A stretch of 64,000 bases of DNA. It comes from Bdellovibrionales bacterium (GTDB lineage: Bacteria > Bdellovibrionota > Bdellovibrionia > Bdellovibrionales > JAUICD01). The notes under the pieces were generated by a model. That model was not told the DNA's origin and searched no databases. It saw only the letters and a program-made list of their open reading frames with translations. Where the stretch lies: positions 1,792,001-1,856,000 of the forward strand of contig OZ253553.1 in the NCBI GenBank assembly GCA_965262715.1, given 5' to 3'. How positions within the stretch are numbered: position 1 is the stretch's first letter; each line of letters opens with the position of its first letter. Shown here one piece after another: positions 13,765-52,200 of this stretch. The translations under genes and the position numbers were made by a program.

Positions 13765-14270
13765 AAGCAGTTTCAAAAATACTAGAAGCCATCTCAAAAA
13801 TAAAGTTTTATATTACCCGTTGAGAAATAAAAGCATTTCCCTTAACATTGCTTAAAAAAATGAGAGATATCTACCCTACTCAAAATAAACAGATTTTTGA
13901 GGCGGTTAGCATCCCCTTGAAGGGGACACATCCCGTAGCGTAAGCCTTCAGGCTAACTGATAAACAACAACAATTTCCCTAACATGGTGTAAGAGAATGA
14001 GGAAACTCTTTCTACTAAAATACATCTTTCTTTCTAGGCGATAACCATTTTCTGATGGAGCCTCAGGGTTATCGCCAGAAAGTGGCCAGGGACTTGCATC
14101 GAGAGGCCAGATGCATTTTAGTGAACAGAGGTTGGTTTATTTTGAGTGAAATAAATTAAACACAAAACATAACATATAACTAAAGATGGCTTCTTACCTG
14201 AGTCTACTCCAGACGCCTGTTATAACTCTATTTCAGTATTGTAAAGTGCAAAGCTTATTTTTGAGACCAC
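13762..14270 (+). mobile_element. Nested repeat complex: GTCTCAAAAATA-type shell containing family-B2 (13836-14151), nested B1 (13974-14125) and 3' half of a family-A core (~14190-14230)
   Basis: tagaagcagtttcaaaaata and tagaagccatctcaaaaata at left, tatttttgagaccac at right; actcaaaataaac pairs with gtttattttgagt around the B1 copy. Confidence 0.65.
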
Positions 14271-14301
14271 GTAACTTCAAATTACTTTGAAGTATTTTTA
14301 T

Positions 14302-16014
14302 TTATTCTCTAAAAATAACGAAAATTTGATTTTGCTCTACACGAGCTTTATTTATGTCACTCTCTGAGAGAACATAATCCTGATATCCTTTAGCTTTTAA
14401 GACGATAAATTGACCTTCATGAAATCTTATTTGTTTAGGTGTTCTTTGATAGTCCCATACTCCATCTATAAAAATCTTAGCTCTACTTGGATGGCTAGAA
14501 ATAAAGATGCTCATGTAAGTGGGGGTTGCTTTTTCTGATGTAAGTGTTTTGTCCTTTTCATCTTTCCCATCTATGAGTTTTGTAATTTGTTTTTTTGTGC
14601 TTTGAAATAAAGTGCTTATTTTTTTAGTCAATTTATTTGTATCTTCTGGATATTTTGTCTTGAGATGAAGAGTAAAAATAACACCAATGGAGAACATTAA
14701 AAGCATGCCAAGTTTCATGCAGATAGAGCTAGTTATTTTTTTTGGAGAAAATAGGTTGTTAGGTTTTTTTACATGCTGATATTTTTGAGGACTCTTTTTT
14801 CTTTGTTGTATGAATTTATTAGGTGTTATTGCTTTTACTTGATTAGTTATAGTATGCATAGGAACTTGAGCGACAGCCTTAGATGCTACTTTAGAACTAG
14901 AGAACTTGCCTGATGATAATGACTGTGCTACATTTCCTTCTTGAGTAAGAGTGATTGTTTTTGTTTTTTCATCAAACTCTATACCTTTTTTTTCTAATTT
15001 CTCTAGTGAAGATTTTATAACTTTATTGATATCATCAAACTCTTTCTTATAAAAATTTTGAATCTTGTAACCAAGATGAATAGGATTGAAATTTGGATAT
15101 TTGGCATTGAGAAGACTAGATAACTCTTGATGAAAGTCGTTTGCTGTCATTTTCCTAAGGTTTCTATCGCGAATCAGAGCCCTACTCACAATTTTTTCTA
15201 TATCTGCGAGATATGGGGTTTCAGGACTTATGCTTTTTAATCTAGGAATATGAGCTTCTTTGACTTTTTTTAAAATTTTGGCTTGAGTGTTTGCATAAAA
15301 AAGACGTTGTTTGGAGAGTAGTTCCCAAAGAATAATACCTAAAGAAAAAATATCTGTTTTTTGGTTTATCTCCAACCCATCAGCTTGTTCTGGGCTCATA
15401 TAACTAAACTTGCCTTGAAGTTTCTTAGCTCGCATTTGAGCCATTTGAGTTGGGTCATTACGTTTAGATATACCAAAATCAATGAGCTTTACTTCTCCTT
15501 CGATACTCACCATGGCATTTTGGGGACTGATGTCACCATGTACTAGATAAAGCTTTTCTCCTGTTTTAGGATGAACAAACCTATGCGCATAATCTAAACT
15601 GGCAGCAAGTTCTTTAATGATATAGATTTTTTCTTCAAAAGCAAGATCTGCTTGGGCTGTATAAAGGTCCTTTAAAATCTGTCTAAGGTTTTTTCCTCTA
15701 ATGAACTCTAATTCTAAGACTAATTTTTGTTTTTTTTCTCCTTTTATCATCTCGTCAACGGTATTATAACCAATAACAGATGCGATATTTTTATGTGACA
15801 TATTCATCACTATGTCTGTCTCTTCCTCAAACATCTTGATGAACTCTAAACTTGAGGAAAAAGAGGAGATCATTGTTTTGATAGCCATTAATTTAGAGGC
15901 TTTTGGTTGACCTTTAGTTGTTTTAGGTCTCTTAACGGCTAAATGAACCTCGGCCATGCCTCCTTTACCGAGTTCATGAATTAAAATATATTCTTTACCA
16001 AGCTTTTTTTCCAT
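14302..16014 (-). CDS. Hanks-type Ser/Thr protein kinase with TM helix and C-terminal PEGA-like domain
   Basis: GKGGMAEV, AIK, HGDISPQN, DFG, YMSPEQ, DIFSLG; TM near residue 435-450; SHPSRAKIFIDG. Confidence 0.9.
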   Translation of the reverse strand: MEKKLGKEYILIHELGKGGMAEVHLAVKRPKTTKGQPKASKLMAIKTMISSFSSSLEFIKMFEEETDIVMNMSHKNIASVIGYNTVDEMIKGEKKQKLVLELEFIRGKNLRQILKDLYTAQADLAFEEKIYIIKELAASLDYAHRFVHPKTGEKLYLVHGDISPQNAMVSIEGEVKLIDFGISKRNDPTQMAQMRAKKLQGKFSYMSPEQADGLEINQKTDIFSLGIILWELLSKQRLFYANTQAKILKKVKEAHIPRLKSISPETPYLADIEKIVSRALIRDRNLRKMTANDFHQELSSLLNAKYPNFNPIHLGYKIQNFYKKEFDDINKVIKSSLEKLEKKGIEFDEKTKTITLTQEGNVAQSLSSGKFSSSKVASKAVAQVPMHTITNQVKAITPNKFIQQRKKSPQKYQHVKKPNNLFSPKKITSSICMKLGMLLMFSIGVIFTLHLKTKYPEDTNKLTKKISTLFQSTKKQITKLIDGKDEKDKTLTSEKATPTYMSIFISSHPSRAKIFIDGVWDYQRTPKQIRFHEGQFIVLKAKGYQDYVLSESDINKARVEQNQIFVIFRE

Positions 16015-16168
16015 ATGAAAAACCCATAATTTACCATAATCTATATCGGATTATGGCATTTAGTTCTTAACTTAAGTGGGGTCTAGTTATAGCTTAAAAG
16101 GGCTATTATCATCAAAAAGGTAATGGTTATAAAATGAAACAGTATAGAAGATTTTCGATTTTAGGTAC

Positions 16169-16196
16169 TTGACAGGTGCTTTAGAAATGATATGGT
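16169..16196 (+). promoter_or_regulatory. Sigma70-type promoter for the 5S rRNA gene
   Basis: TTGACA (16169-74), 16-nt spacer, TG-n-TATGGT (16191-96), about 6 nt upstream of the 5S 5' end. Confidence 0.6.
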
Positions 16197-16201
16197 GTAT
16201 T

Positions 16202-16319
16202 TACTGGTTTTTATAGCGGTGGGGGTACACCTGATCCCTTTTCGAACTCAGAAGTTAAGTCCGCCAGCGGCCATGGTACTACAGTGATCTCACTGCGGGA
16301 GAGTAGCACGATGCCAGTA
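16202..16319 (+). rRNA. rrf: 5S ribosomal RNA (stand-alone)
   Basis: Helix I tactggt/gccagta; conserved acacctgatccc..tcgaactcagaagttaag, atggtact, gggagagtag. Confidence 0.93.
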
Positions 16320-17276
16320 TTTTTTCTTTTTATAGTACATATCTTGCAGAAGTAAACCTTTAAGCTGATTAATAGACAACAACAATTTCCCTAACATAAT
16401 GTAAAAAGACGAGGATATCCTTCTAGTAAAAATGCCTCAGGCTTTCTAGGCATTGCCCTATTTGCCAAACGGCGTGAGCCAGTTTGGGGGCAATGCCAGA
16501 AAGTTGCCAGAGGCAAGAGGCATTTTTAGTGAAACAGAGTAGCACGATGCCAGTATTTTTTCTTTTTATAGTACATATCTTGCAGAAGTAAACCTTTAAG
16601 CTGATTAATAGACAACAACAATTTCCCTAACATAATGTAAAAAGACGAGGATATCCTTCTAGTAAAAATGCCTCAGGCTTTCTAGGCATTGCCCTATTTG
16701 CCAAACGGCGTGAGCCAGTTTGGGGGCAATGCCAGAAAGTTGCCAGAGGCAAGAGGCATTTTTAGTGAAACAGAGTAGCACGATGCCAGTATTTTTTCTT
16801 TTTATAGTACATATCTTGCAGAAGTAAACCTTTAAGCTGATTAATAGACAACAACAATTTCCCTAACATAATGTAAAAAGACGAGGATATCCTTCTAGTA
16901 AAAATGCCTCAGGCTTTCTAGGCATTGCCCTATTTGCCAAACGGCGTGAGCCAGTTTGGGGGCAATGCCAGAAAGTTGCCAGAGGCAAGAGGCATTTTTA
17001 GTGAAACAGAGTAGCACGATGCCAGTATTTTTTCTTTTTATAGTACATATCTTGCAGAAGTAAACCTTTAAGCTGATTAATAGACAACAACAATTTCCCT
17101 AACATAATGTAAAAAGACGAGGATATCCTTCTAGTAAAAATGCCTCAGGCTTTCTAGGCATTGCCCTATTTGCCAAACGGCGTGAGCCAGTTTGGGGGCA
17201 ATGCCAGAAAGTTGCCAGAGGCAAGAGGCATTTTTAGTGAAACAGAGTAGCACGATGCCAGTATTTTTCTTTTTAT
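16300..17276 (+). repeat. Tandem array of four identical 236-bp units plus a partial fifth
   Basis: agagtagcacgatgccagt recurs at 16300, 16536, 16772, 17008, 17244; each unit has the 5S 3' end, a T-tract and a family-B1 element. Confidence 0.92.
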
Positions 17277-17298
17277 TAAGATATTCAATAAATATAAT

Positions 17299-17513
17299 GG
17301 CATTGTTGCATATTGGTGATATATAAAGTCTAGAAAATTATGGTAGGCATCTTCACTAGCAGCAGGCAACCCCCGTGCCCTGTATTGCTGTTATTTTGTG
17401 GTTTTATTATGGTATAAAAACTTTATACAAATTTTTATCTCCTGAGGCACTGGCCTGAGCTAGATCAGATGCCTACCATAATTTTCTATACATATTTTTT
17501 ATGCAACAAGTCC
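17299..17513 (+). mobile_element. IS903-type MITE with family-A core (17331-17488)
   Basis: ggcattgttgcata / tatgcaacaagtcc ends; perfect 22-bp stem tagaaaattatggtaggcatct/agatgcctaccataattttcta. Confidence 0.8.
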
Positions 17514-17653
17514 ATAAATAATGGATAATTTTATATAAAAAATATCTGTATTTTTATGCCTATTCTTTGTTGAATATGATAGAAAAATCATATAATCATA
17601 TATTTATAATAAAAATAAGTCAGACACACTAAGTAAAAAATAAAGTTATTATT

Positions 17654-18226
17654 ATGATTAAATCCATTAAATTTCAGAATTTTACATCACTTTATCATGA
17701 AGGTGAGGTCAATTTTGTAGTTGATGATGATGCTCCAGATATAAACGATTTTAAAAAGTGTGGTTCTCACCGGCTCTCAAAAGTATCAGTTATTTTAGGA
17801 GCCAATGGTTCAGGTAAAAGTAATGTGCTTTATGCGATTGCTTTTTTAAGAAGATTTATAGCGCATTCGTTTTCAGAAGCTTCAGAAGGGATAAATATAC
17901 CTCCACATGCAGCGCAAACAGATAAGCCCTCTTATTTCGAAGTGGAATTTTATATTGAAAAGCAGTTATATAAATTTTCTTTAAGACTTAATCAAGAAAG
18001 AGTGCTTTTAGAGACTTTACAATGTCTCAGTCAAGATACAAAGATGTTGTATTCAAGAGAATATGATTCTTCGAAAGGTTCTTATGCATTTGATGGTAAG
18101 AATTTAGAGGTAGAAAGTGATTTTATAAGTAGAGTGCGACCTAATGCTTCTGTTGTATCTACAGGATCACAATATAATTATAATAAATTCATTCAAATTA
18201 AAAGTTATTGGATATGCTTTTATTGA
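17654..18226 (+). pseudogene. 3'-truncated copy of the RloA-like AAA ATPase
   Basis: Close paralog of 19701-20861 up to QIKSYW, then cut at a duplication junction; lacks Walker B. Confidence 0.85.
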
Positions 18227-19211
18227 TATGATCAAATTCTTTCTTATAAAAGTTTTGAATTTTATAGCCAAGATGAATGGGATTAAAACTTGGGTATTTT
18301 GCGTTGAGAAGACTAGATAACTCTTGATGAAAGTCGTTTGCTGTCATTTTCCTAAGGTTTCTATCGCGAATCAGAGCCCTACTCACAATTTTTTCTATAT
18401 CTGCGAGATATGGGGTTTCAGGACTTATGCTTTTTAATCTAGGAATATGAGCTTCTTTGACTTTTTTTAAAATTTTGGCTTGAGTGTTTGCATAAAAAAG
18501 ACGTTGTTTGGAGAGTAGTTCCCAAAGAATAATACCTAAAGAAAAAATATCTGTTTTTTGGTTTATCTCCAACCCATCAGCTTGTTCTGGGCTCATGTAG
18601 CTAAACTTACCTTGAAGCTTCTTAGCTCTCATTTGGGCCATTTGAGCTGGATCATTCCGTTTAGATATACCAAAATCAATGAGCTTTACTTCTCCTTCGA
18701 TACTCACCATGGCATTTTGGGGACTGATGTCACCATGTACTAGATAAAGCTTTTCTCCTGTTTTAGGATGAACAAACCTATGCGCATAATCTAAACTGGC
18801 AGCAAGTTCTTTAATGATATAGATTTTTTCTTCAAAAGCAAGATCTGCTTGGGCTGTATAAAGGTCCTTTAAAATCTGTCTAAGGTTTTTTCCTCTAATG
18901 AACTCTAATTCTAAGACTAATTTTTGTTTTTTTTCTCCTTTTATCATCTCGTCAACGGTATTATGACCAATAACAGATGCGATATTTTTGTGTGACATAT
19001 TCATCACTATATTTGTTTCTTCTTCAAACATTCTAACAAACTCTAGACTTGAAGAAAAAGAAGGAATCATAGTTTTGACAGCTAGTAGCTTAGAGGTTTT
19101 TGGCTGGCCTTTAGCTGCTTTGGGTTTCTTTACAGCCAGATAGACTTCGGCCATTCCTTCTTTACCGAGTTCATGGATTAAAATATATTCTTTACCAAGC
19201 TTTTTTTCCAT
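18198..19211 (-). pseudogene. 3'-truncated copy of the Ser/Thr kinase (kinase domain only)
   Basis: Near-identical to the first ~330 aa of 14302-16014; Gly-loop GKGG changed to GKEG; no TM or C-terminal domain. Confidence 0.8.
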
Positions 19212-19351
19212 ATAAAAAATCCATAGTCTACCATGATTTATATCGGATTATGGCATTTAGTTCTTAACTTAAGTAAGGTCTATTTTGTGTGAGCCAAAGT
19301 AGCACGATGCCAGTGTTTTTTCTTTTTATTAAGATATTCAATAAATATAAT

Positions 19352-19565
19352 GGCATTGTTGCATATTGGTGATATATAAAGTCTAGAAAATTATGGTAGG
19401 CATCTTCACTAGCAGCAGGCAACCCCGTGCCCTGTATTGCTGTTATTTTGTGGTTTTATTATGGTATAAAAACTTTATACAAATTTTTATCTCCTGAGGC
19501 ACTGGCCTGAGCTAGATCAGATGCCTGCCATAATTTTCTATACATATTTTTTATGCAACAAGTCC
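19352..19565 (+). mobile_element. IS903-type MITE with family-A core (duplicate of 17299-17513), preceded by a 5S 3'-end remnant (~19298-19315)
   Basis: Nearly identical to 17299-17513; agtagcacgatgccagt upstream. Confidence 0.8.
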
Positions 19566-19700
19566 ATAAATAATGGATAATTTTATATAAAAAATATCTG
19601 TATTTTTATGCCTATTTTTTGTTGAATATGATAGAAAAATCATATATTTATAAATAACAATGAGCTGAAATGTACCTAAATAAGGATTACAGTTATTATT

Positions 19701-20861
19701 ATGATTAAATCAATTAAATTTCAGAATTTTACATCCTTTTATCATCAAGGTGAGGTCAACTTTGCAGTTAATAATGATGCTCCAAACACGTCTCATTTTA
19801 AGAAATGCGGCACTCATCGACTCTCAAAAGTATCAGCTATTTTAGGAGCCAATGGCTCAGGTAAAACTAATGTTCTTTATGCATTTGCTTTTTTAGGAAA
19901 CTTTATAGCACATTCATTTTCAAAAACTTCGGAAGGAATAAATATGCATCCACATGCAGCGCAGGCAGATAAGCCTTCTTATTTCGAAGTTGAGTTTTAT
20001 ATTAAAAAACAATTGTATAAGTTTTCTTTAAAACTTGATCAAAAAAGAGTTCTTTTAGAGACTTTACAGTGTCTCAGTCAAGATACAAAGATATTGTATT
20101 CAAGAGAATATGATTCTTCGAAAGGTTCTTATGCATTTGATGGTAAGAACCTAAAGGTAGAAAGTGATTTTATAAATAGAGTGCGGCCTAATGCTTCTGT
20201 TGTATCTACAGGATCACAGTTCAATTATGAGGAACTTCATCAAATTAAAAGTTATTGGGATCATATCATTTTTTCACCTTCTTTTAATGTTTTTAAAGCT
20301 TCTAAGTTTTATTTTGAAAATAAAGATTATTTTGATAATGCTAAAGAATATCTTAAAAAATTAGACCTTGGGTTATCAGATATCGATATAAAAAAAACAG
20401 AACAGAAAACATCAAAGGATAAAATAAAAACTGTTTATCTTCCTTATGGTATCCATAAACACAAATCTAAGGAATTTAAAATCCCTTTTATTTTTGAATC
20501 TTTTGGAACACAGAAATTATACACTACGCTTAGAATGATTTTACCTACTTTAGGTACAGGTTCACTTTGTGTTATAGATGAGATAGAATCTTCTCTTCAT
20601 CCAAAGATGTTGCCATTTATTTGTGATTTATTTGTATCGGAGGAGAGTAATCCTAAAGGGGCTCAACTGCTTTGTACAACACATGCGCCTATCTTGGTGA
20701 ATGAATTATCACAATATCAAATATTTTTAACTGAAAAAAATAAAGATTGTGAGAGTGAAATCTATCGATTGGATGATGTTGAAGGTGTAAAATCAGATGA
20801 CAACTTTCTTGGAAAATACTTAGCGGGAGCTTACGGCGGAGTTCCTCAGATTGATGTATAA
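19701..20861 (+). CDS. RloA-like AAA ATPase (AAA_21)
   Basis: GANGSGKT, ESFGTQK, VIDEIESSLHP, TTH, C-terminal YLAGAYGGVP. Confidence 0.85.
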   Translation: MIKSIKFQNFTSFYHQGEVNFAVNNDAPNTSHFKKCGTHRLSKVSAILGANGSGKTNVLYAFAFLGNFIAHSFSKTSEGINMHPHAAQADKPSYFEVEFYIKKQLYKFSLKLDQKRVLLETLQCLSQDTKILYSREYDSSKGSYAFDGKNLKVESDFINRVRPNASVVSTGSQFNYEELHQIKSYWDHIIFSPSFNVFKASKFYFENKDYFDNAKEYLKKLDLGLSDIDIKKTEQKTSKDKIKTVYLPYGIHKHKSKEFKIPFIFESFGTQKLYTTLRMILPTLGTGSLCVIDEIESSLHPKMLPFICDLFVSEESNPKGAQLLCTTHAPILVNELSQYQIFLTEKNKDCESEIYRLDDVEGVKSDDNFLGKYLAGAYGGVPQIDV

Positions 20862-20863
20862 CG

Positions 20864-21373
20864 ATGGTAAAGAAGAGAAAACAAAAACACACTATATTTA
20901 TTTATTGTGAGGGCAAAGATGATCGTTTATTTATTCAACATCTGAAGCGTGCTTTTGCTAGTCTTAAAAAAAGTATTGAATCTAAAAAAGGAGGAGGAGG
21001 TGGACCTTCTTGGATGATTCAAAAGACTACTCGTGAGCCTGGCGAATATGATGAAAAATATATTTTTTTAGACTTAGATCAAGGTAAAGATAAGGAAAAG
21101 CATGAGAGTGATGCTAATAAACAAAATATCACATTGATTTGGTCTACTCCATGTTTAGAAGGATTATTTCTACAGATATTAAATGGTCATCCTCAAATGT
21201 CTGATTCGCAAAAATATAAAAATCACTTTAAGAAGGAATATAATTCAAATAAAAGACAATATGATCCTACAATGTTTGAAAGATTATTCCCTAAGGAAAA
21301 GCTTGTTTCTAAAAAGGCAAAGATTCCAACACTCAATCAATTGATTCAAATAATAAATAGCATAGGAGATTAA
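20864..21373 (+). CDS. RloB-like protein
   Basis: IYCEGKDD, FLDLD, STPCLE motifs; immediately follows the RloA-like ATPase. Confidence 0.75.
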   Translation: MVKKRKQKHTIFIYCEGKDDRLFIQHLKRAFASLKKSIESKKGGGGGPSWMIQKTTREPGEYDEKYIFLDLDQGKDKEKHESDANKQNITLIWSTPCLEGLFLQILNGHPQMSDSQKYKNHFKKEYNSNKRQYDPTMFERLFPKEKLVSKKAKIPTLNQLIQIINSIGD

Positions 21374-23890: not shown

Positions 23891-24117
23891 TTAAACCTAT
23901 TTATCTTCATCAGGAAGAAAAATAAATAGCAATCATCTTTTTATTACAGAGTTTCTTTTTGAGTATCAATGAAAAATATTGAGCTTTCTTAAATAAGTAA
24001 TAAATCAAAGCAAAATGGGGTATTAAATAATGCAGTCAGTTAAAACTCAATTTTTCAAAAATTTCTTTAAGATAGTTTTGAATTTTTTCATAAGAAATAG
24101 AGAGAGAAATAAAACGA

Positions 24118-24448
24118 TTTCCTTAACATGTTGTTAAAAAATGAGGGGAGTCTCCTTACTAAAATGCATCATACTTTCTAGGCATTACCCTATTTGCCAG
24201 ACGGCGTGAGCTAGTTTGGGGGCGATGCCAGAAAGTTGCCAGAGGCTTGCCTCGAGAGGCTCGCCTCGAGAGGCAAGATGCATTTTAGTGAAAATTGAAA
24301 CAGTTTCCCTAACATGAAGTAAAGAGATGAGGGGAGTCTCTCTCCTAAAAATAAACGGATTTTTGAGGCAGTCAGCATTTTCTTGAAGATGTGAATCTTC
24401 AGGCTGACTGCCCAAAAACTGCCAGAGGCAGGTTTATTTTTAGGGAAA
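24118..24448 (+). repeat. Adjacent family-B elements (B1 24118-24293, B2 24304-24448)
   Basis: tttcc(c/t)taacat start, gaggggagtct, long covarying stems, ttag(t/g)gaaa end. Confidence 0.8.
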
Positions 24449-24452
24449 TAGA

Positions 24453-25505
24453 TCAATTACATTTTTCCTGATCGTACCTGCAAATTCCAAAGCGGCCCAG
24501 TTCTGCTACATAAGCTAGAGCTAGCTTAACAAAGTCAACAGAATGCTCAGCATTGCCACCAGACGCTTCAAAAGTGTCTGTGACTTTATGTATATGAGGA
24601 GTGATCTCACGTAACCTGGCTTCTATAAACATGGAAGCAGGATAGCCTGCATTATGCCAAGAGGCATGATCTGAACATCCACGTTCACAATAATCGTATT
24701 CCCATGTTATTTCTGGGAGATAAGTTTGAATGAGTCGTTCTAAAAATGCATTTTGCCCAGGATCTGTATAATCACCAATCATAACAAGATCAAGATCTTC
24801 AGAGCCTCTAAAGTTTGTCATATCAAAATTCAGAACACCAATGACATTTTGACCCTCTGCTGCAAAAGAGTTGGCAATATGCTCTGATCCTTTTAAACCT
24901 AACTCCTCTGCTGCAGACCCTACGGCTTTAACGGTTCTTGGCAGACAACCATTGTTATGAAGCATCAGGACTCTAACCACTTCTGTAATGACGGCTATTC
25001 CAGAAGCATTGTCATCAGCTCCTGGTGATCTTTTCCCTAGATTCTCTTCATCATTAGCAGGTGTGCCAACTCTTTCTTTAAGAGCAGAGTCAGCATGAGC
25101 TCCTAGGACGATTATTTCTTCTGGGATAATGCAGCCTTCTATAGTAAGTATTAAAGAAGGTTGCAGGGGACTGAATTCTGGATGGTAAAAATAATCTATA
25201 CTAACATTATTTTTACCTTGTGTTATTTCTTCCACTTGGGATTTTAAGCCTTCACCTTGTGCTACCTCTTCCCACTTGGATTTTAACCATTTCTGTGCCT
25301 CAATAGCTTTTGGACTATTATAATATCTTGTTTCAAATGCTGAAAAAGCTTGTATGGTATTTGCTATCTCTGCGGCATCTACACTCTCTAACATCTCAAC
25401 CACTTCTGGTAATGGCTCTTGAGCTAAAACCGGTTTATAGAACAAAACAGAAAAAGATAACCCTATCAATCCAAAAACAATATGTTTCATATTATTAACC
25501 TCCAA
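24453..25505 (-). CDS. M28 family leucyl aminopeptidase, secreted
   Basis: GAHADS, GADDNASG, AAEELG, NFDMT, SDHASW, HIH. Confidence 0.9.
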   Translation of the reverse strand: MEVNNMKHIVFGLIGLSFSVLFYKPVLAQEPLPEVVEMLESVDAAEIANTIQAFSAFETRYYNSPKAIEAQKWLKSKWEEVAQGEGLKSQVEEITQGKNNVSIDYFYHPEFSPLQPSLILTIEGCIIPEEIIVLGAHADSALKERVGTPANDEENLGKRSPGADDNASGIAVITEVVRVLMLHNNGCLPRTVKAVGSAAEELGLKGSEHIANSFAAEGQNVIGVLNFDMTNFRGSEDLDLVMIGDYTDPGQNAFLERLIQTYLPEITWEYDYCERGCSDHASWHNAGYPASMFIEARLREITPHIHKVTDTFEASGGNAEHSVDFVKLALAYVAELGRFGICRYDQEKCN

Positions 25506-25911: not shown

Positions 25912-26225
25912 TTAAGCCTATTCATCAGTAAGGAAAATAAATAGCAATTATCTTTTTACTACAGAATTTCTTTTTGAGTATCAATGAAAAATATTGAGGT
26001 TTCTTAAATAAGTAATAAATCAAAGCAAAATGGGGTATTAAATAATGTAGTCAGTTAAAACTCAATTTTTCAAAAACTTCTGTAAGATAGTTTTGAATTT
26101 TTTCATAAGAAATAGAGAGAGAAATAAAACGATTTCCTTAACATGTTGTTAAAAAATGAGGGGAGTCTTCCTCCTAAAAATGAACAGATTTTTGAGACAG
26201 TCAGCATTTTCTTGAAGACATAAGT

Positions 26226-28181
26226 CCTGAGTTTGACACTTAATTTGAATTTTCGTGATATTTTTTTCAAGGAATGTTGTATTTATAGTCATTAGCGGTT
26301 ATTGTGTTTGTATTTTGGTCAAAAAGTGTAGTGTACTTATTTATCATACACTACGCGTCATATACCTTATTTTCTTTTATTTTTTATATTTTTCTTGTAA
26401 TGTATTTTTATGTTCATAAGGTCTACAAGAAATCCGAGAGGAGACATATATTATCATCTTGTTGAGAGCTACAGATTAGGTTCTCAAGTGAAGCAAAGGA
26501 TTCTAATGTCTTTAGGTAAAGCCGCGGATAAGGAAGTTAACTTGAAGAAGCTTCTAGAAGTATTATCTAAAGAGTTAGAGATAATTCCTGCTAGTAAGTT
26601 ATTAAAAGAGATTGATGTTAAAGACACTTTTATATTAGGTCCCTTACTTATAATAGATGCTATTTTCAAACAATTAAATCTCTATGAATTATTAACAGAT
26701 TTAAAACAAAAGCACCCTAAAGTACAATTTGATTTTGTTAAGATTATTTTTACATTGGTTATAAGCCGTTTTGTAGAGCCATGTTCTAAGCTTAAAGTAT
26801 TTTCACACTGGCAGAAGTTATTTTACCCTGATTTTTTAGAAGAGGAGCTTCATCTTCAAGACATTTATCGTTCTTTAGATATTCTAAGTAAGCATAAGGA
26901 AGATATAGAGAAGACTCTTTATACACAAGGTAAGTCTCAGTTAAGTTTTTTCAATGAGTGTGATGTTATTTTGTATGATTTAACGACATTGAGATTTGAG
27001 AGTACCCGAGAGGATTTAGATAATCTTCGAAGATTTGGTTATAGCAAAGAGAAGAGGAGTGATTGTACCCAGGTGGTATTTGGACTTTTAGTAGATAGAG
27101 AAGGTATGCCCTTAGGCTTTGATGTTTATCCTGGAAATACCTTTGAAGGTAAAACCATACCTTCAGTTATGGAGAAACTAAAAAAGAAGTTTAAGATCAG
27201 AAGATTTATATTAGTAGGAGATAGAGGTTTATTTTCTAATGAGAATTTACAATCTGTAAAAGCAAAGGGAGATGAATTTATAGTAGGATTAAAGCTAGGT
27301 TTATTAAAGGATCGTCATTCAGAGATATACAATTTAAAGAATTTTAAATTTATAAATGAAGATTTAGCTATATACGAGACGAGTTATAATGATAATCGTT
27401 GTATAATTACCTGGTCAAGAAAGAGAGCAGAACGAGATAAGAAAGTAAGAGAAGATATTCTATCTAAGTTAGAAGATAAGCTTTCAAAATCGTCATCAAG
27501 CACAAAGGATTTTGTATCTAATAGCAATTATAAGAAGTATATTATTCATCCTAAGAGTAAAGGCAAGCCTACTTTAAATAAGTCAGCCATAGAACAATCA
27601 GAGAGGACAGATGGTTTTTTTGGAATCATTACAAATACAGATAGTTTAAGTTCTGAAGAGATTATAACGAACTATAAGCAATTATGGAAGGTAGAGAATT
27701 CATTTAGAGAATTGAAAGGTACATTAAAGACACGTCCTATGTTCCACTGGACAGATAAGAGGATCTTAGGACATTTAGTTGTGTGTTTTTTATCTTACTT
27801 ATGTGAGGCTTATTTTTCAAAGAAGTTACATCAGAGAAACATCACATTAAAAGATAAAGCAATTACAGACAAGAGAATAAAGTCAAGGCCATTGAGTGTG
27901 GCAGAAGCTATGTCAAAGCTGAAAGAAGTACGAGCTATACCTGTGAGGGTAAAGGATAAGACACTTTGGATCAGAACAGATATTAACGGTAACAATGCTG
28001 ATGTATTTAAAGCTATAGGAGCAAAGATCCCATCAAAACAACTTAAAGTAGAATCTACTTAGACCTACAAACAATCTCTTAAATCTCTACCACAAAATCA
28101 AAATGTAGTGGTACAAAATCACACATCCACTGTAACTAACTAAAATAACTTAACTTTATTTTCGCAACTGTCAAACTCAGG
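26226..28181 (+). mobile_element. IS1634-family element with 118-bp flanking direct repeat
   Basis: TIR cctgagtttgaca / tgtcaaactcagg; 26108-26225 repeated at 28182-28299. Confidence 0.9.
26410..28062 (+). CDS. IS1634-family DDE transposase
   Basis: YDLTT, FGYSKEKR, PGNT.E, VGDRG, YKQLWKVENSFRELK, RPMFHW. Confidence 0.92.
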   Translation: MFIRSTRNPRGDIYYHLVESYRLGSQVKQRILMSLGKAADKEVNLKKLLEVLSKELEIIPASKLLKEIDVKDTFILGPLLIIDAIFKQLNLYELLTDLKQKHPKVQFDFVKIIFTLVISRFVEPCSKLKVFSHWQKLFYPDFLEEELHLQDIYRSLDILSKHKEDIEKTLYTQGKSQLSFFNECDVILYDLTTLRFESTREDLDNLRRFGYSKEKRSDCTQVVFGLLVDREGMPLGFDVYPGNTFEGKTIPSVMEKLKKKFKIRRFILVGDRGLFSNENLQSVKAKGDEFIVGLKLGLLKDRHSEIYNLKNFKFINEDLAIYETSYNDNRCIITWSRKRAERDKKVREDILSKLEDKLSKSSSSTKDFVSNSNYKKYIIHPKSKGKPTLNKSAIEQSERTDGFFGIITNTDSLSSEEIITNYKQLWKVENSFRELKGTLKTRPMFHWTDKRILGHLVVCFLSYLCEAYFSKKLHQRNITLKDKAITDKRIKSRPLSVAEAMSKLKEVRAIPVRVKDKTLWIRTDINGNNADVFKAIGAKIPSKQLKVEST

Positions 28182-28206
28182 AGAAATAGAGAGAGAAATA
28201 AAACGA

Positions 28207-28351
28207 TTTCCTTAACATGTTGTTAAAAAATGAGGGGAGTCTTCCTCCTAAAAATGAACAGATTTTTGAGACAGTCAGCATTTTCTTGAAGACATAAGTC
28301 TTCAGGCTGACTGTCCAAAAACAGCCAGAGGCTGGTTCATTTTTAGGGAAA
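28207..28351 (+). repeat. Family-B2 element (target of IS1634)
   Basis: cctaaaaatgaac/gttcatttttagg and gacagtcagc/gctgactgtc stems. Confidence 0.8.
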
Positions 28352-29628: not shown

Positions 29629-29986
29629 TTATAAGTCAGATTTTTCAATTAAGTTATGTCCTGTCATCTCTTTTGGGACAGGTAAGTTAAGAAGGGTTAA
29701 GAGAGTAGGTGCAATATCAGAAAGTTTTCCATTAGAAAGCCTGTAAGGTGTTTGATCAGATCGAGATATCCATATCAGAGGGACAGGATTTGTCGTGTGT
29801 TGAGTTAAAACCTGAGATGTCTTAGGACAGATCATCTCCTCACAGTTGCCATGATCAGATGTGATAAAAATTTCATGATTTGATTTTTCTGCCTGAGATG
29901 CAATACGGCCTAAACATTCATCAATCACTTCTATAGCTTTAATAGCTGCTTTTTCATTGCCCGTGTGGCCTACCATATCTCCGTTT
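29629..29986 (-). pseudogene. Duplicated 3' end of gpmI (island-flanking direct repeat)
   Basis: Nearly identical to 38859-39204; homology begins at the helicase stop codon. Confidence 0.88.
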
Positions 29987-33282: not shown

Positions 33283-33335
33283 CTTAGATCATATTCCTTT
33301 TGAGCTTTTTAGACTTATATTATAAATTTTACTTT

Positions 33336-34318: not shown

Positions 34319-34502
34319 AAGCTGAAGTGGAGGATGAAATAGTCTTAAATACTTTCTTTCGGCCTAAGGCAATAGCTGTTCTTTCTAAAATATCCTTGGT
34401 TTTTTGATGCTGTTTGTAAAGTTCTAATGCTTCTGTGTTTTCATACAAAACTTCTTTTGACATGATCTTACTGGACGTAAGCTCTAACTTCTTTGCTTTC
34501 AT
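34278..34502 (-). CDS. Small hypothetical protein upstream of the protease
   Basis: 74-aa ORF preceded by GGGAG RBS; overlaps the protease start. Confidence 0.5.
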   Translation of the reverse strand: MKAKKLELTSSKIMSKEVLYENTEALELYKQHQKTKDILERTAIALGRKKVFKTISSSTSACEINPHAIYSTTK

Positions 34503-34597
34503 TAGTTTCTCCCATAACCTATTATAATGGATTTTATCTTAAAAAATCAAATTATAATGATTGAGTGTTCTAATATAGTATATAATTAGGTTTTGCA

Positions 34598-37500: not shown

Positions 37501-38671
37501 ATTCTTGTGCTTTTTTCTTAAGAGATCGTGCCTGATAAGCTGAATTTGTTTTATAAGGCAGAAGATCTCTATCTTCAGCATGAGCGATAAATAAGAGGCG
37601 AAACAGAACAGTCAAAGTCTTATGATAAACTTTGTCTAAATCTTGAGAGGATGGATTTTTTATTTTCATTGCGTGAATCATTCCATTGGCTATTTGAGGA
37701 ATAATCTTATCATAGATGCGGTCTTTTAAATTCTTTGCCACATTTTCCGAAAAACGTTTGGATTTTTCTAAGATTTCACTCAAAGATCCTTTTTCACTTA
37801 AAGCTTCAGCAGAGAAGATAAGCCATAAATAGCCTAAATCTTCTTCTTGAAGAAGAGATGATTGACATTCTATATAGGTTTCCGTTCGAGAATTACCACT
37901 GACTCCAGATTTTTTATCAGTGCTATAAAGTCTTATACAATTTTCCTGAACCATTAAAACCCAAGGCATAGCTTCCTGGTCTGCCTTATCCATTGCATAA
38001 GAGACAGGTGAGAGTTGATTAAAACGCTGTTGAGAGGAATAATGAGCTTCTGAAGGATCTAAAAGAACTGCTAAAGCTCTCTTTTTATCTTTGCTTTTTA
38101 AGATATAAGTCAAGTTATCTAGCCGAGTTATATAAAAGCCAAGTTCTTCCAAAAGGTCTTGTCTTTTAAAATCAGATATACTTTTAGATTTCTGCCTTGC
38201 TTTTTCCCAATCATGCCGTTTTTTAACTCCATGGATAAGGTGATGAGAGGCTAGCATACCCTTATTATTAATACCAGATATCCCTTCTACAGAAGGCAAG
38301 AAATGATGACAAAATTCCAAAGCCTTATGACGATTTGGTTGCTCTAAAGCTGTTTGGCAAAATCTCTCGACAAGCTCAAGCCTGCCTTGATAAACCGGAG
38401 GATTTTCACCAGAAGGGCCACAAAGAGAAGCTTGATTGTTTCCATGGATAACAGTCAATAGAACTGGTGAAGCTCTGTTGTTCTTTCTTTTCTTATGAGC
38501 ATTTTTTATTTTTGAGACATTTGGCTGAGTATCACTTGAAAAAACAGCTACTTCTAAGCTAGAATCCCCTTTTCCTAAAATTAATTTCTCAGGTTTTAAA
38601 CCTTGTTCTACTAATTGGAGAGGTCTTTTTGGAAAACTTTGAAGAAATTTCTTTGCAGCACTCATAATCAA
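34598..38671 (-). pseudogene. Type IIG/Eco57I-like adenine methyltransferase(-endonuclease) split by an in-frame TGA
   Basis: YNGGLF, FGTIYEGLLE, GSYYT, DIAMGSGHFL, GNPPW; ORFs 35420-38671 and 34598-35407 are in one frame separated only by TGA (WIT*TDVEMH). Confidence 0.8.
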
Positions 38672-47404: not shown

Positions 47405-47949
47405 ATGTCCCTTTCGGGGATGGTTGAAATCCCTCGCCTTCAGGCGACGCTCAATTTGTGGTATAATACTCAATATGAGACAGTACAGACTTAGTTCACA
47501 TACAAAGAGCGATCTTAAGTTTCATATTGTTTGGATTCCTAAATATCGCAAGAAAGTTTTAGTGGGAGAAGTTGCTACAAGGGCAAGGGACTTATTAAGA
47601 AAGATAGCAATGGAACATGATTTGGTAGTTATTTCAGGTAAGGTAGCTAAAGATCATGTTCATATATTTTTATCCTATCGACCACATCAAAGTATAAGTA
47701 AAATAGTTCAGTGGTTAACAGGTATAAGTTCACGAGTTTTACTTCAGGAATTTCCTTATTTGCGCAAGCAGTTTTGGGGTCGTCATTTTTGGGCTAGAGG
47801 TTATCTTGTAGTAAGTTCTGGTAATATAACAGATGAACTCATCAAGAAGTACGTGGATGAACAAGAGGGTGAACAAATAGCGGATGATAGTCAATTTCCA
47901 ATTGACCCTTCTATTTGAACCCCTCGACTTCAAGTCGAGGGTTGTTCAG
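47405..47949 (+). mobile_element. IS200-type element (tnpA only)
   Basis: Subterminal hairpins tcgccttcaggcga and ccctcgacttcaagtcgaggg flank tnpA; exact ends approximate. Confidence 0.85.
47475..47918 (+). CDS. tnpA: IS200/IS605 Y1 (HUH) transposase
   Basis: HIVWIPKYR, DHVH, FWARGY, YVDEQ. Confidence 0.93.
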   Translation: MRQYRLSSHTKSDLKFHIVWIPKYRKKVLVGEVATRARDLLRKIAMEHDLVVISGKVAKDHVHIFLSYRPHQSISKIVQWLTGISSRVLLQEFPYLRKQFWGRHFWARGYLVVSSGNITDELIKKYVDEQEGEQIADDSQFPIDPSI

Positions 47950-48394: not shown

Positions 48395-48508
48395 AATTGT
48401 CCCCTTATGTTATTACAATAATTGCACTTTTTTTAAAGACGTACAAGCAGTTTTGCTTGACGTCAAATAGATGTAATAATTACAAGTGTGGCAATTACAG
48501 AGCTAGGT

Positions 48509-49276
48509 CTAGGCAACTAAGCCTTGTTTTTTGCTATCGAGTAACCCGTTACGCCTTGCAACCCTTTTAAGTGTTGTTTGATGCCACTTGCCCTTTTGTC
48601 TTGTTTGAATCTTAAGAGAGTTGATTTCTTTAGTGATAGCTTCCCAAGTCTTGCCACTTTTTCTTAAAACCTTAATGATAGGGACAATTCTTTGATCGGC
48701 AATCTCTCTTTTAGATTGTTTATTTGGAGCAGCTGCTTTTTTCTTAGATGTAGTAACTTTAGTTTGTTCAGCTATTTGAGCTTCTTTAGCTTGTCTTTTC
48801 TTTTCCCATAAAGCTTCTAAACCTTTTCTTACATTAGGGTTATTGTAACCGAGTGGCTTACCTTGCTTCTTAACTTCCTGCAAAGCTCTCTTTGTCCTAT
48901 TGCTGATACTCTCACGTTCATATTGTGCTATAGCACCCATAATGTTGATTGTCAGTGGGGTTGCATCGGGCATATCACATACAACAAAATTGACCTTACT
49001 TCTACCAAGTGAAGTAATAAAATGTAAGTCCCTTGAGAGTCGGCTTAATGTAGCAATAATAAGAGTAGCCTTGTTTTTCTTAGAAGTAGCTAAAGCTTTT
49101 TGAAGTTCCGGTCTATTCTTATCAGACTTGCCACTTTCTTTTTCAGTGAAGCTTTCTAGTGGCTTAATGTCTCCAAGATAGTTTTTGACCATAGTCTTTT
49201 GAGCATCTATACCTAGAGATTGTTTGTTAGTGGATACCCTGTAATAAGCAATATATTTGATTTTTTTATTTCCCAT
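48509..49276 (-). CDS. Serine recombinase (resolvase family) with C-terminal recombinase-type DNA-binding region
   Basis: YYRVST..Q, EKESG, RPEL, LSRLSR, ERESISNRT, G..LG, GKWHQT. Confidence 0.9.
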   Translation of the reverse strand: MGNKKIKYIAYYRVSTNKQSLGIDAQKTMVKNYLGDIKPLESFTEKESGKSDKNRPELQKALATSKKNKATLIIATLSRLSRDLHFITSLGRSKVNFVVCDMPDATPLTINIMGAIAQYERESISNRTKRALQEVKKQGKPLGYNNPNVRKGLEALWEKKRQAKEAQIAEQTKVTTSKKKAAAPNKQSKREIADQRIVPIIKVLRKSGKTWEAITKEINSLKIQTRQKGKWHQTTLKRVARRNGLLDSKKQGLVA

Positions 49277-49826
49277 TTTACACCTCGTTTTTCTTTATTT
49301 CCTAACCTTATATATATAGCTATGACACAGTTTATTATCTATGTCAAGACATTAATACTTATTAATAAATAAACTTATTGTGTTGAATATTAATCATAGA
49401 TTAAATGTTTAATAAGAATACAATAATGATATAGATTACATATCATTAATGGTTACTTTATGTATAATATAATCACTTAGTGCCTCGATTTATCATCAAG
49501 GCCTAAAGAGATTACACCTTTATAACCCTATGGCTGTTAAAGTCCATTGAACCGGCTTATTTGTTTGAAACTCTATCATGTTGAATATTTTTTTCTTGTT
49601 TTTAATGCTTACAACAGCTCTTTTTTTGTCATAATTGATAAAGAAACTGTATTTAACCAAAACACCTTCTTATATTTTCATTTTAGCAAGAAAAATTTCC
49701 TTAACATTTTATAAAAAAATAAAGAGATACTCATTACTAAAAATAAACATATTTTTTAAATAAAAGCCCTTTACAAGGGTAGTGTCCTCGCAAAGGGCGG
49801 AGATAAAAAATATCATGAAACTTGTA

Positions 49827-50297: not shown

Positions 50298-50398
50298 GCT
50301 CTTTTATTGTTTCTGTTTTTAAATCTTTATGAAACTGTGTAGTTTCTGTTTTATCAAACAAGTAAACCCACGTTATTTTGAACATGGGTTTATTTACT

Positions 50399-50632: not shown

Positions 50633-51387
50633 TTAGTGCCATCCTGTGCATTTTCTACAACTTTTGATTGATTCATGACCCATACATCTTCTTCATTTCC
50701 TCCAATATCTCCAACTGCACCTATAGTAAATGAAGGGTTATACCTATTTGTATTATTAACTTGCGCTTCTCCATTAATCCATGCTCCTGCTGTAGCAGCA
50801 TTTGAAGAATCTTTACATCCACTAGTTGCTGCGGCTGCACAATCTGTCTGATTAGTAGCTGTGCATCCAGTGTCGGTAGCACTACCCGGACCACAAGTTC
50901 CTAAAACAGCATTTACAGTTGACCACTGTACACTTACAGATGTAATCCCAGGAGCTAAGCCACATTTTGTAGCACTACCGCCAGACTTGCATAATTCAAT
51001 GGTGTCACGGTCTGTTACTGCTGATGGTAATGGTCCTCTATAGCCAGGTTCTCTAGTAGCTTTGTTAGGATTTATGATTCCAGTACCTGCTAGAGTATTA
51101 GTAGAAAATCCTACTCTGTATTGCACTAAACCATCTGGAGAAAATCCAGCTTGATCTATATTAGGTGTTGCAAACCCATGCTCTGTTGCAAAAGTAACTT
51201 CTGCTGAATAAACACCAGACATCAATCCTTTTGCCTCTGCTTGTTGTGCCTTTCTTTGGAAGCGTTGATAGTTTGGTATAGCAATCGCTGCCAATATACC
51301 AATGATCGCAACCACTACCATCAATTCAACCAAAGAAAAACCTTTTTGATTTTTCCATTTTTTAATGAATTTAAACTTCGTTTCCAT
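50629..51387 (-). CDS. pilA: Type IVa pilin
   Basis: QKG|FSLVELMVVVAIIGILAAIAIPNY prepilin motif; Cys pairs in C-terminal domain. Confidence 0.85.
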   Translation of the reverse strand: METKFKFIKKWKNQKGFSLVELMVVVAIIGILAAIAIPNYQRFQRKAQQAEAKGLMSGVYSAEVTFATEHGFATPNIDQAGFSPDGLVQYRVGFSTNTLAGTGIINPNKATREPGYRGPLPSAVTDRDTIELCKSGGSATKCGLAPGITSVSVQWSTVNAVLGTCGPGSATDTGCTATNQTDCAAAATSGCKDSSNAATAGAWINGEAQVNNTNRYNPSFTIGAVGDIGGNEEDVWVMNQSKVVENAQDGTK

Positions 51388-51423
51388 TTTCTTTCCCCTT
51401 TTATTTAATTAATTTTTAAATAT

Positions 51424-51584
51424 TTTCCTTAACATGATGTAAAAGAACTAAATGTATCTCCCTTACTTAAAATGAACAGTTTTTTGAGGCAGTCAGCATT
51501 TTATTGAAGGGGATACATCCCGTAGCGTGAGCCTTCAAGCTGACTGTCCAAAAACAGCTAGAAGCTGGTTCATTTTGAGTGAAA
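51424..51584 (+). repeat. Family-B2 element just upstream of pilA
   Basis: acttaaaatgaac/gttcattttgagt, gcagtcagc/gctgactgt, gcGTGAgc loop. Confidence 0.8.
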
Positions 51585-51712
51585 CAGCTTTAAAATAATA
51601 AATCTTTTATGTGTCTTCTTAAGCTGCTTAATTTGAAAGAAAAGATGACCAAAAATATCAAAAATGAAAGCCTTAAAAGTCAAGTCAAAAGGCTGTTTTT
51701 TAACGTAACTGG

Positions 51713-51875
51713 ACTGTAACTTACGTACATAAGTTACAGTATTAAGTTCTTAAAATTATTACCGATATAGTTAATGGAAAGGATTTTTCATTGATGGTCA
51801 TTGGTAGGGAAAATGACCAAAAACATCAATGATTTTAAAGGTACACCACTGTAACTTATGTACGTAAGTTACACT
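51713..51875. promoter_or_regulatory. Pair of 28-bp near-palindromic sites (51713-51740, 51848-51875)
   Basis: ACTGTAACTTA-CGTACA-TAAGTTACAGT and ACTGTAACTTA-TGTACG-TAAGTTACACT. Confidence 0.75.
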
Positions 51876-52026
51876 ACTAAGTAGTTGAAATCATTGAAGT
51901 ACTAGACGGTCTAGTCTAGTATTAAGACAACATTTAAGTTCAGAAAATTATAAAAACGTTGAATATTGATAAAGAAACTGTATTCAACCAAAACAATTTC
52001 TTGTATTTTCATTCTAGCAAGAAAAA

Positions 52027-52200
52027 TTTCCTTAACATAGTGTTAAAGAAAGAGGAGTTCCTCTTTAGTAAAATGCATCAAGCTTTCTAGGCAGTAAGCT
52101 ATTTGCCGACGGCCGTAAGAGCTGTCGGGCTTACTGCCAGAAAGTGACCAGAGGTCAGAGGCATTTTAGTGAAACAGAGACCAGTTTATTTTTAGTGAGA
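52027..52200 (+). repeat. Family-B1 element followed by a B2 3' tail
   Basis: ggcagtaagc/gcttactgcc, cGTAAg loop, tgacc-aga-ggtca; preceding ~70 nt also present at ~49635-49705. Confidence 0.8.

What the first reader, a model, noticed from the sequence alone, without database searches (positions are those of the whole stretch)
13836..52200. Family B: second covarying multi-stem element with GNRA loops, all copies on one strand
Seen: copies at 13836, 13974, four in the 236-bp array, 24118, 24304, 28207 (part-duplicated at 26133), 51424, 52027 and a stub at ~49697. Shared layout: TTTCC(C/T)TAACAT leader, outer stem (actaaaatgcatc/gatgcattttagt; actcaaaataaac/gtttattttgagt; cctaaaaatgaac/gttcatttttagg), inner stem (ggcattgccc/gggcaatgcc; ggcgataacc/ggttatcgcc; ggcagtaagc/gcttactgcc; ggcagtcagc/gctgactgcc), a ~6-nt pyrimidine-rich bulge, apical GTGA/GTAA loops, side hairpin (tgcc-aga-ggca, tgacc-aga-ggtca, cagcc-aga-ggctg) and terminal GAAA. 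Every copy is in + orientation over 38 kb. The stem-bulge layout echoes family A (gc-atcccc vs gc-aacccc). Inference: a mobile structured RNA or ssDNA element with strand-biased insertion; no cognate enzyme is evident in the window.
Basis: partly seen in the sequence, partly recalled or inferred. Interest (0 to 1): 0.78.

Follow-up and report, generated by a model that had tools for sequence, protein, structure and literature searches.

The report
DNA mini-hairpin selfish repeat, mover unknown
A 145-base repeat present hundreds of times in one genus of uncultured bacteria keeps a branched fold, likely as single-stranded DNA rather than RNA, and likely spreads by joining one fixed end to arbitrary DNA without any transposase that could be matched to it.

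Summary
The element is real and its helices covary: 96% of cells paired, 30 of 40 pairs change on both sides, slid controls 36-49%. The headline 'all on one strand' is local chance: genome-wide 104 + versus 98 - clusters, and a run of 7 arises in 79% of shuffles. There are about 450 copies (2% of the genome), confined to one genus among those searched. The loops are GNNA, not GNRA: in a second-genome set 280 of 314 copies carry the DNA mini-hairpin GCGNNAGC, and 119 of 307 GNNA loops have a pyrimidine at position 3. This points to folded ssDNA. The 3' end, probably 8 nt past the outer stem, joins non-specific targets and makes long duplications and apparent adjacent deletions. An IS200 TnpA is not found in the sister genome. 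An IS1634 transposase co-occurs with the element and makes long target duplications, but its ends and target base do not match. The mover stays unknown. This scan reported the same family before, at least six times, elsewhere in this genome; the new points here are the mini-hairpin count, the mis-binned contigs, and the IS1634 test.

The parts
13836..13961 (+). Host copy, 5' part (leader, outer and inner 5' arms, apical hairpin), interrupted by a nested copy
13974..14126 (+). Nested full copy; its 3' end joins the AGAGG side-loop of the host; about 13 nt of host replaced by an A/C-rich linker
14127..14151 (+). 3' remnant of the host copy (side-hairpin 3' arm, outer-stem 3' arm, GAAA)
16203..16319 (+). 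5S rRNA gene whose last 20 nt plus T-tract were re-copied by the array
   Evidence: RF00001, 82.6 bits
16300..17276 (+). 236-bp array: 34-nt duplicated 5S end + 52-nt carried head + element, four times, closed by a fifth copy of the duplicated segment; copies at 16386, 16622, 16858, 17094
   Evidence: the unit-to-unit junction 16531-16703 is also on a contig of run X5, a second study
24118..24293 (+). Full copy with two extra 14-nt units in the side hairpin
24304..24451 (+). Full copy, head to tail with 24118; reference three-way-junction fold
26133..26225 (+). 5' part of the 28207 copy, re-copied inside the 118-bp target duplication of IS1634
26226..28181 (+). IS1634-family element (transposase 26410-28062); candidate mover, tested and not supported
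   Evidence: NF033559, 369 bits
28207..28354 (+). Full copy
47424..47918 (+). IS200/IS605 TnpA (Y1 HUH) with its own end hairpins; the only Y1 match in the genome; candidate mover, not supported
49696..49772 (+). Decayed 5' stub
51424..51584 (+). Full copy with a lengthened apical arm
52027..52200 (+). Full copy (52027-52174) followed by a second terminal arm joined at a side-loop-like site

Best explanation
Family B is a non-coding repeat of about 145 bp with about 450 copies and a conserved three-way-junction fold; it likely folds as single-stranded DNA and likely spreads as a selfish element by a one-ended copy-in. Shown: the fold (13-bp outer stem, inner stem with one bulged A and a ~6-nt T-rich bulge, GNNA mini-hairpin cap, 5-bp AGA side hairpin), a conserved unpaired 5' leader, and junctions at which the 3' end is joined to non-specific DNA while the 5' end carries variable heads. 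Inferred steps: (1) the + strand folds when it is exposed as ssDNA, and the mini-hairpin helps it resist SSB; (2) a trans-acting, probably host, protein makes or uses a free end about 8 nt 3' of the stem foot; (3) that end is joined to an arbitrary site by polymerase template switching, often through 2-4 nt of microhomology; (4) copying stops loosely at or beyond the leader. An upstream target gives a duplication or array, a downstream target gives an adjacent deletion, and a distant target gives a new insertion.
For: Fold. Bulged A kept in 212 of 214 copies, which pure palindrome correction would be expected to erase (inference). Strand: G-T outnumbers A-C 165:89 in G000 and 325:126 in the second-genome set; copies are not independent. 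DNA over RNA: GNNA in 162 of 204 and 307 of 314 copies, with a pyrimidine at position 3 in 30 and 119 of these; exact GCGNNAGC in 46 of 204 and 280 of 314. PMC13037366 (abstract start, passages, section 4.1) describes d(GCGNNAGC) as an unusually stable DNA motif, gives the RNA form of GCGAAAGC a Tm of 39 C, finds it at phage G4/St-1/alpha3 priming sites and reports poor SSB binding. End: in 24 G000 junctions the carried tail is 4 nt in 8, 4 or fewer in 19, longer in 5; tails differ in sequence; 9 of the 19 share 2 or more bases with the target. Base conservation in the second-genome set stops after +3 (A 230 of 390; +4 is even). The 3' end lies within 10 nt of a convergent stop codon in 19 of 84 cases against 3 of 93 for the 5' end, and abuts 5 of 34 tRNA CCA ends (0.05 expected). 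Empty versus filled sites. No reverse transcriptase, Y1 or IS110 found in G001.
Against: The 24 events were hand-picked from 55 rows. In G000 only 46 of 204 loops are the exact mini-hairpin and 132 are GNRA-compatible. No replication-strand bias remains once gene orientation is allowed for, although ssDNA elements often show one (recalled), and the skew proxy is poor here. A mild sense bias (68 versus 42 in co-directional gaps) and arrays at 5S, tRNA and ribosomal-protein gene ends fit an RNA step equally well. AG is in excess at targets (10 of 24 against 3.2 expected), which an HUH enzyme cutting C|T on the other strand would also give. G001 is 90% complete, so a missing enzyme gene is not excluded.
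Confidence: 0.5

Rival explanations
1. B is a REP/REPIN/PATE-like element moved by an HUH (Y1, RAYT-like or unrecognised) nuclease that is now lost or too divergent to detect; it cuts and rejoins the folded strand, and circles give arrays.
For: ssDNA-type fold with required bulges; PMC8266576 (passages) reports that TnpA-REP needs a bulge and cuts at C|T 5' or 3' of the REP; AG excess at targets on the + strand equals CT on the - strand; nesting and arrays resemble REPINs (PMC3116915, passages); one Y1 gene lies in the window.
Against: No PF01797 match in G001, which holds at least 150 copies. The window TnpA has its own end hairpins, with only 3 left-end and a handful of right-end matches in the genome. 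14 of 24 targets lack AG at the junction, and tails vary in sequence. No GTAG-type guide at the stem foot.
Confidence: 0.22
2. B is parasitic on the IS1634/IS1549-type DDE transposase, which makes long variable target duplications; its tail CAG-N mimics the IS end TCAGG.
For: 17 of 26 IS1634-type end pairs in G000 have exact 50-337 bp duplications, overlapping the B range (20 of 24 at 31-315 bp). The transposase is found in G001 and on the B-bearing contig C11 of G004, and not found with this query in G002, G003 or the rest of G004. PMC2266710 (passages) notes 8-514 bp repeats and no mechanism.
Against: B lacks the CCTGA inverted repeat at both ends. IS ends join an A in 22 of 26 cases (two rows share one end) against 6 of 18 for B (hand counts, Fisher p = 0.001); over all B ends the base is A in 109 of 289. 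IS duplications are flush at both ends, whereas B carries heads of 0 to about 60 nt. Co-occurrence rests on one genus.
Confidence: 0.12
3. B moves through RNA: read-through transcripts are trimmed to about 8 nt past the stem and copied by a reverse transcriptase that jumps onto the RNA 3' end (target-primed, SINE-like).
For: Fixed-length 3' tail, variable 5' heads, long variable duplications and microhomology are retro-like; sense bias 68 versus 42; arrays at highly transcribed gene ends; G000 has three RT matches, one a group II intron.
Against: No RVT_1 match in G001. Loops tolerate a pyrimidine at position 3 in 119 of 307 copies and match a DNA-specific motif. No Rfam ribozyme or other family near its gathering score.
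Confidence: 0.1
4. B is a domesticated host element (terminator, mRNA stabiliser or protein-binding site) spread by gene conversion and ordinary slippage; the covariation comes from arm exchange and palindrome correction.
For: The side hairpin scores as a terminator-like site on both strands; 3' ends sit at gene ends; the rpsQ-rplN site is shared with a close relative but holds different inner arms.
Against: Insertions into genes (Rpn genes), nesting, polymorphic sites and a narrow distribution; copies lie inside the ribosomal-protein operon in sense orientation, where termination would harm.
Confidence: 0.06

Closest known systems
REP / REPIN / BIME with RAYT (TnpA-REP) (PMC8266576, PMC3116915; passages read)
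   Same: Hundreds of extragenic folded copies, required bulge, nesting, tandem arrays with flanking DNA, likely ssDNA substrate.
   Different: 145-nt three-way junction rather than a 20-40 nt hairpin; no GTAG guide; no strict CT site; no Y1 gene in the sister genome.
bcr1 of the Bacillus cereus group (review PMC3184786; passages read)
   Same: About 155 bp, branched fold kept by compensatory changes, clade-restricted, mobile without its own enzyme.
   Different: bcr1 is flanked by 5-bp direct repeats and described as an RNA fold; B has no fixed short duplication, one defined end and DNA mini-hairpin loops; sequence relation not tested.
IS1634 / IS1549 long-repeat insertion sequences and their possible MITEs (PMC2266710; passages read)
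   Same: Long variable target duplications; present in the same genomes; CAG just inside the 3' end.
   Different: B has no CCTGA inverted repeats, no preference for A at the target, and a ragged 5' end.
Mini-hairpin priming sites of phages G4, St-1, alpha3 (PMC13037366, section 4.1 read)
   Same: GCGAAAGC and GCGTTAGC caps on ssDNA hairpins; both occur in B copies.
   Different: Those are single origins in phage genomes; priming at B is untested and the overall folds were not compared.

Membership tests
REP/REPIN (RAYT-mobilised) | GTAG/GGAG-type tetranucleotide at the foot of a short palindrome | tested here: not met
   alignment A1: the bases before the outer stem are CCT/CCC-rich
REP/REPIN (RAYT-mobilised) | Y1/RAYT gene in the genome, flanked by the repeat | tested here: not met
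   one Y1 in G000, an IS200 TnpA with its own ends and no B within 1.7 kb; none found in G001 (90% complete)
REP/REPIN (RAYT-mobilised) | Joining at C|T dinucleotides | tested here: inconclusive
   AG (CT on the other strand) at 10 of 24 targets against 3.2 expected, absent at 14
REP/REPIN (RAYT-mobilised) | High-copy extragenic stem with conserved bulge | tested here: met
MITE of a DDE insertion sequence | Terminal inverted repeats matching an IS in the genome | tested here: not met
   weak 8-9 of 12 self-similarity of the two ends; by inspection no match to the ends shown for nine IS families
MITE of a DDE insertion sequence | Target duplication flush with both ends | tested here: not met
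   duplications are variable and often separated from the leader by heads; one empty-site comparison shows at most an A-run duplicated
IS110/IS1111 non-autonomous element | Cognate DEDD recombinase in the genome | tested here: not met
   no PF02371 in G000; no PF01548 in G000 or G001; controls rang
IS91-type rolling-circle element | Y2 transposase in the genome | tested here: inconclusive
   0 of 5 genomes, but the control rang nowhere
IS91-type rolling-circle element | Fixed target tetranucleotide at the precise end (recalled) | tested here: not met
   targets share no tetranucleotide
Retroelement / retrozyme-like RNA | Reverse transcriptase available in trans | tested here: inconclusive
   3 matches in G000, 0 in G001 at 90% completeness
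Retroelement / retrozyme-like RNA | Self-cleaving ribozyme or known RNA family | tested here: not met
   Rfam gathering scan of the window finds only 5S; E-value scan of 23900-24600 gives 13 weak hits, all below gathering
Retroelement / retrozyme-like RNA | Discrete transcript | not testable with these tools
   no RNA holder listed
bcr1-type repeat | 5-bp direct repeats at insertion | tested here: not met
bcr1-type repeat | Branched fold kept by compensatory changes, about 150 bp | tested here: met
Single-strand origin / primase site | Primer synthesis directed by the fold | not testable with these tools
   only the mini-hairpin cap is shown

The most novel reading that the evidence does not exclude
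B is a selfish single-strand priming site: an SSB-resistant, mini-hairpin-capped DNA fold that recruits the host's own primase or restart machinery, starts a strand at a fixed point 8 nt from its foot, and copies itself into new sites with no transposase or reverse transcriptase. That would be a mobile element whose only mover is the replisome.
Probability: 0.2. Interest if true: 0.85.

Novelty: new variant of a known kind. Interest (0 to 1): 0.55.

Why it matters
How small folded repeats spread in bacteria without their own enzyme is a long-standing open question. This family is a good test case: two complete genomes with hundreds of diverged copies, a fold that can be read base by base, a measurable end, and none of the usual movers found in the sister genome. 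It also reshapes its host by duplicating gene ends and eroding intergenic DNA. If host replication proteins move it, that is a new route of transposition. The value of this particular finding is lowered because its headline strand bias fails and the scan has described the family before.

Tried and rejected
Strand bias: rejected genome-wide; the raw run test on 305 leaders looked strong only because of arrays. Replichore test by GC skew: 58-59% agreement, gone after stratifying by gene orientation, and skew is a poor proxy here (404 of 728 genes on the G-rich strand). Window IS200 TnpA as mover. Reverse transcriptases: a group II intron, its fragment and a retron-like gene, none bounded by B. 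IS110. IS91: uninformative, the control was silent. Archaeo-eukaryotic primase PF01896: 0 of 5. Tyrosine recombinases: 2 in G000, checked there only; an attC-like reading was dropped because targets lack a conserved core. Rpn/PF04754 nucleases: expanded in G000 (19) and G001 (16) but also in G003 (16), where B was not found; no fixed Rpn+B cassette; my recalled AG preference for RpnA was not borne out by PMC5350276 (passages: little if any specificity). Avd-like PF05635 genes: also 19 in the B-free part of G004. Autonomous long copy (5' half, ORF, 3' half): none convincing among 11 split candidates. G004 as a third lineage: rejected, its B contigs are mis-binned. Viral (70 loci) and metagenome (3 loci) pattern hits: 0 of 73 score against the profile. 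Sequencing runs: no RNA holder listed. Leader hairpin as conserved structure: weak, position 18 pairs in 106 of 214. Promoter scan: none at 23900-24600. Literature: no paper held four of five terms on template-switch repeats; a Bdellovibrio repeat search listed nothing relevant by title; one search gave two unrelated papers. These are three searches of an open-access library only, so absence from print is not established. No supplements were read.
Full report
OBSERVATION. The window lies at 1,792,001-1,856,000 of a single 2.94-Mb contig. A profile built from 100 full copies finds 457 matches (246 +, 211 -), 278 nearly full length, 2.0% of the genome. Only 1 of 202 single-orientation clusters lies inside a long ORF. 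Rfam finds only the 5S rRNA and nothing near a gathering score over two copies.

ORIENTATION. Collapsed at 600 bp the copies form 222 clusters; 202 have one orientation, 104 + and 98 -. Runs are mildly fewer than chance (86 against 101.8 +/- 7.1, p = 0.015), and the same-strand share is 0.81 at 0.6-2 kb, about 0.55 at 2-20 kb and 0.46-0.50 beyond. The window's 13 copies are 7 clusters, and a run of 7 appears in 79% of shuffles. Agreement with GC skew (58-59%) is carried by sense copies in co-directional gaps; convergent gaps split 25:24 and divergent 20:23. The skew is scrambled, so a replichore effect is not firmly excluded. What remains is a mild sense bias, 68 against 42.

STRUCTURE. The fold is an unpaired 40-nt leader, a 13-bp outer stem, a 3-nt linker, an inner stem of 6 + 10 bp with one bulged A, a ~6-nt T-rich bulge, an 8-bp apical stem with a tetraloop, a 5-bp side hairpin with an AGA loop, and a GAAA tail. 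On 40 copies from G000, G001 and G004, 96% of cells pair and 30 of 40 pairs change on both sides; slid controls give 36-49%. On 134 copies under 90% identity, 31 of 42 pairs show two or more Watson-Crick types. Relatedness and arm exchange inflate such counts: the rpsQ-rplN site holds different inner arms in two close relatives. The bulged A is kept in 212 of 214 copies, which argues for selection on shape (inference). G-T exceeds A-C, 165:89 and 325:126, so the + strand is the folding strand.

DNA OR RNA. The apical loop keeps G first and A last, but position 3 is free. In G000, 162 of 204 loops are GNNA (132 GNRA, 30 GNYA). In a second-genome set (115 loci pooled with 24 G001 loci; 314 distinct copies), 307 are GNNA, 119 of them GNYA, and 280 read exactly GCGNNAGC. 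PMC13037366 (abstract start, passages, section 4.1) describes GCGNNAGC as an extraordinarily stable DNA mini-hairpin, much weaker as RNA, found at the priming sites of phages G4, St-1 and alpha3, and binding SSB poorly. This is the best evidence here for an ssDNA fold. It is weaker in G000, where 46 of 204 are exact.

ENDS AND JUNCTIONS. A screen of 321 3' ends gave 55 rows where the 3' flank recurs nearby. I kept 24 with an upstream target outside the element and dropped self-duplications of the terminal arm, nested, redundant and doubtful rows. The carried tail past GAAA is 4 nt in 8 events, 4 or fewer in 19 and longer in 5; it varies in sequence, and 9 of the 19 share two or more bases with the target. 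Targets share no motif beyond an excess of AG (10 of 24 against 3.2). Distances from target to element start run from 31 to 1320 bp. The 5' side carries heads of 0 to about 60 nt (several rows there are tandem copies with point changes). The same screen in the second-genome set showed no cap at 4, with most targets in other copies, though base conservation there ends after +3. The 3' end lies within 10 nt of a convergent stop codon in 19 of 84 cases against 3 of 93 for the 5' end, and within 0-4 nt of the CCA of 5 of 34 tRNA genes (0.05 expected); a pattern that finds 2 of these 5 in G000 finds 3 in G001. I read this as deletion from the 3' end up to the first essential feature (inferred). In the window, the 236-bp array re-copies the last 20 nt of 5S plus its T-tract, and one unit junction is also on a contig from a second study.

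DISTRIBUTION. BLAST finds B in 3 of 41 relatives; a covariance model finds it in 3 of 151 genomes of the order and 1 of 151 of the class, counting G000. G001 has at least 150 copies (capped). The 12 matches in G004 lie on three small contigs; G004 has two rplB genes, one 96% identical to G000 on contig C11 and one 69%, and these contigs align with G000 at about 80-95%. They are mis-binned pieces of a close relative, so B is confined to one genus among those searched. They provide empty-site evidence: two sites filled in the relative are empty in G000. The first 80 of 115 loci from the genome collection all come from one record titled as a Bdellovibrionales MAG; the other 35 also score as B, and their records were not listed.

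CANDIDATE MOVERS. The window has an IS200 TnpA, the only Y1 match in G000, but none was found in G001 and its end hairpins are rare. G000 has three RT matches and G001 none. IS110 was not found in either; the IS91 search was uninformative. Rpn and Avd-like genes are expanded but also occur without B. The IS1634 transposase at 26410-28062 was the best new lead. Of 26 end pairs, 17 have exact duplications of 50-337 bp, and it is found in G001 and on G004 contig C11 but not in G002 or G003. Against it, B lacks its inverted repeats, and IS ends join an A in 22 of 26 cases against 6 of 18 for B (p = 0.001).

MECHANISM AND COMPARISON. The best account is a folded ssDNA element with one position-defined end that is joined to arbitrary DNA by template switching, with a loose stop at the leader (confidence 0.5; steps after the fold are inferred). 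It works like REP/REPIN elements (PMC8266576, PMC3116915; passages) but fails their guide and enzyme tests, and resembles bcr1 in size and covariation but lacks its 5-bp repeats (PMC3184786; passages). It is not filed in either family.

PRIOR SCAN REPORTS AND VERDICT. One search lists at least six earlier reports on this family elsewhere in the genome, with the same general reading; these are not independent support. I wrote my own reading (fixed 3' end, variable 5' flanks, 50% ssDNA) before seeing them, then took up their wording 'one-ended' and the bcr1 and Avd leads. Verdict: a real, undescribed (by three limited searches), genus-restricted selfish repeat; the strand-bias claim fails; new variant of a known kind; interest 0.55.

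Noticed in passing
window 26108-28299: IS1634 element with an exact 118-bp target duplication; 17 of 26 such end pairs in the genome have 50-337 bp duplications, nearly all starting with A and ending with T.
   Followed up: partly
G004 contigs C1, C4, C11 (L011, L131, L012): Mis-binned contigs of a close relative of G000 inside a genome of another genus; second rplB copy shows it.
   Followed up: yes
G000:C1:1928300-1930200: A group II intron (465-aa RT) sits inside a family A element shell.
   Followed up: no
G000:C1:2650522-2652294: Retron-like reverse transcriptase with a long N-terminal extension, next to tRNA-Asp, a partial tRNA duplicate and a B copy.
   Followed up: no
G000, genome-wide; window 24241-24274: A 14-nt unit expands inside the B side hairpin; 241 matches, 202 within 120 bp of a B copy.
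   Followed up: partly
G000, e.g. C1:2620560-2620700 and right flanks of IS30 copies; L012:9320-9510: A third structured repeat with an A/T-tract palindrome and bulged stems is often fused to B copies and forms the 3' flank of many IS30 copies.
   Followed up: no
G000:C1:2198524-2198955: Four partial tandem copies of tRNA-Trp precede the intact gene, with no B copy within 200 bp.
   Followed up: no
G000, 43 ORFs (e.g. C1:2741959-2796277): Large expansion of Rpn/YhgA-like nuclease genes and small C-terminal fragments; several are interrupted by B.
   Followed up: partly
window 16203-16319: A 5S rRNA gene standing apart from 16S/23S genes within this window.
   Followed up: no
window 14302-21373: Local duplication of a Ser/Thr kinase gene and an AAA_21 ATPase gene, with RloB; other defence-like genes at 4612-5553 (HipA-like), 9766-11740, 29986-38671.
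   Followed up: no
window 48509-49276 and 52214-52540: A lone serine recombinase and a small multi-copy ORF with no Pfam or NCBIfam match, each within about 420 bp of a B copy.
   Followed up: no
loci L151-L265: In the second-genome set 46 of 390 3' ends begin with TGT, and those inspected run into the reverse leader of an oppositely oriented copy.
   Followed up: no
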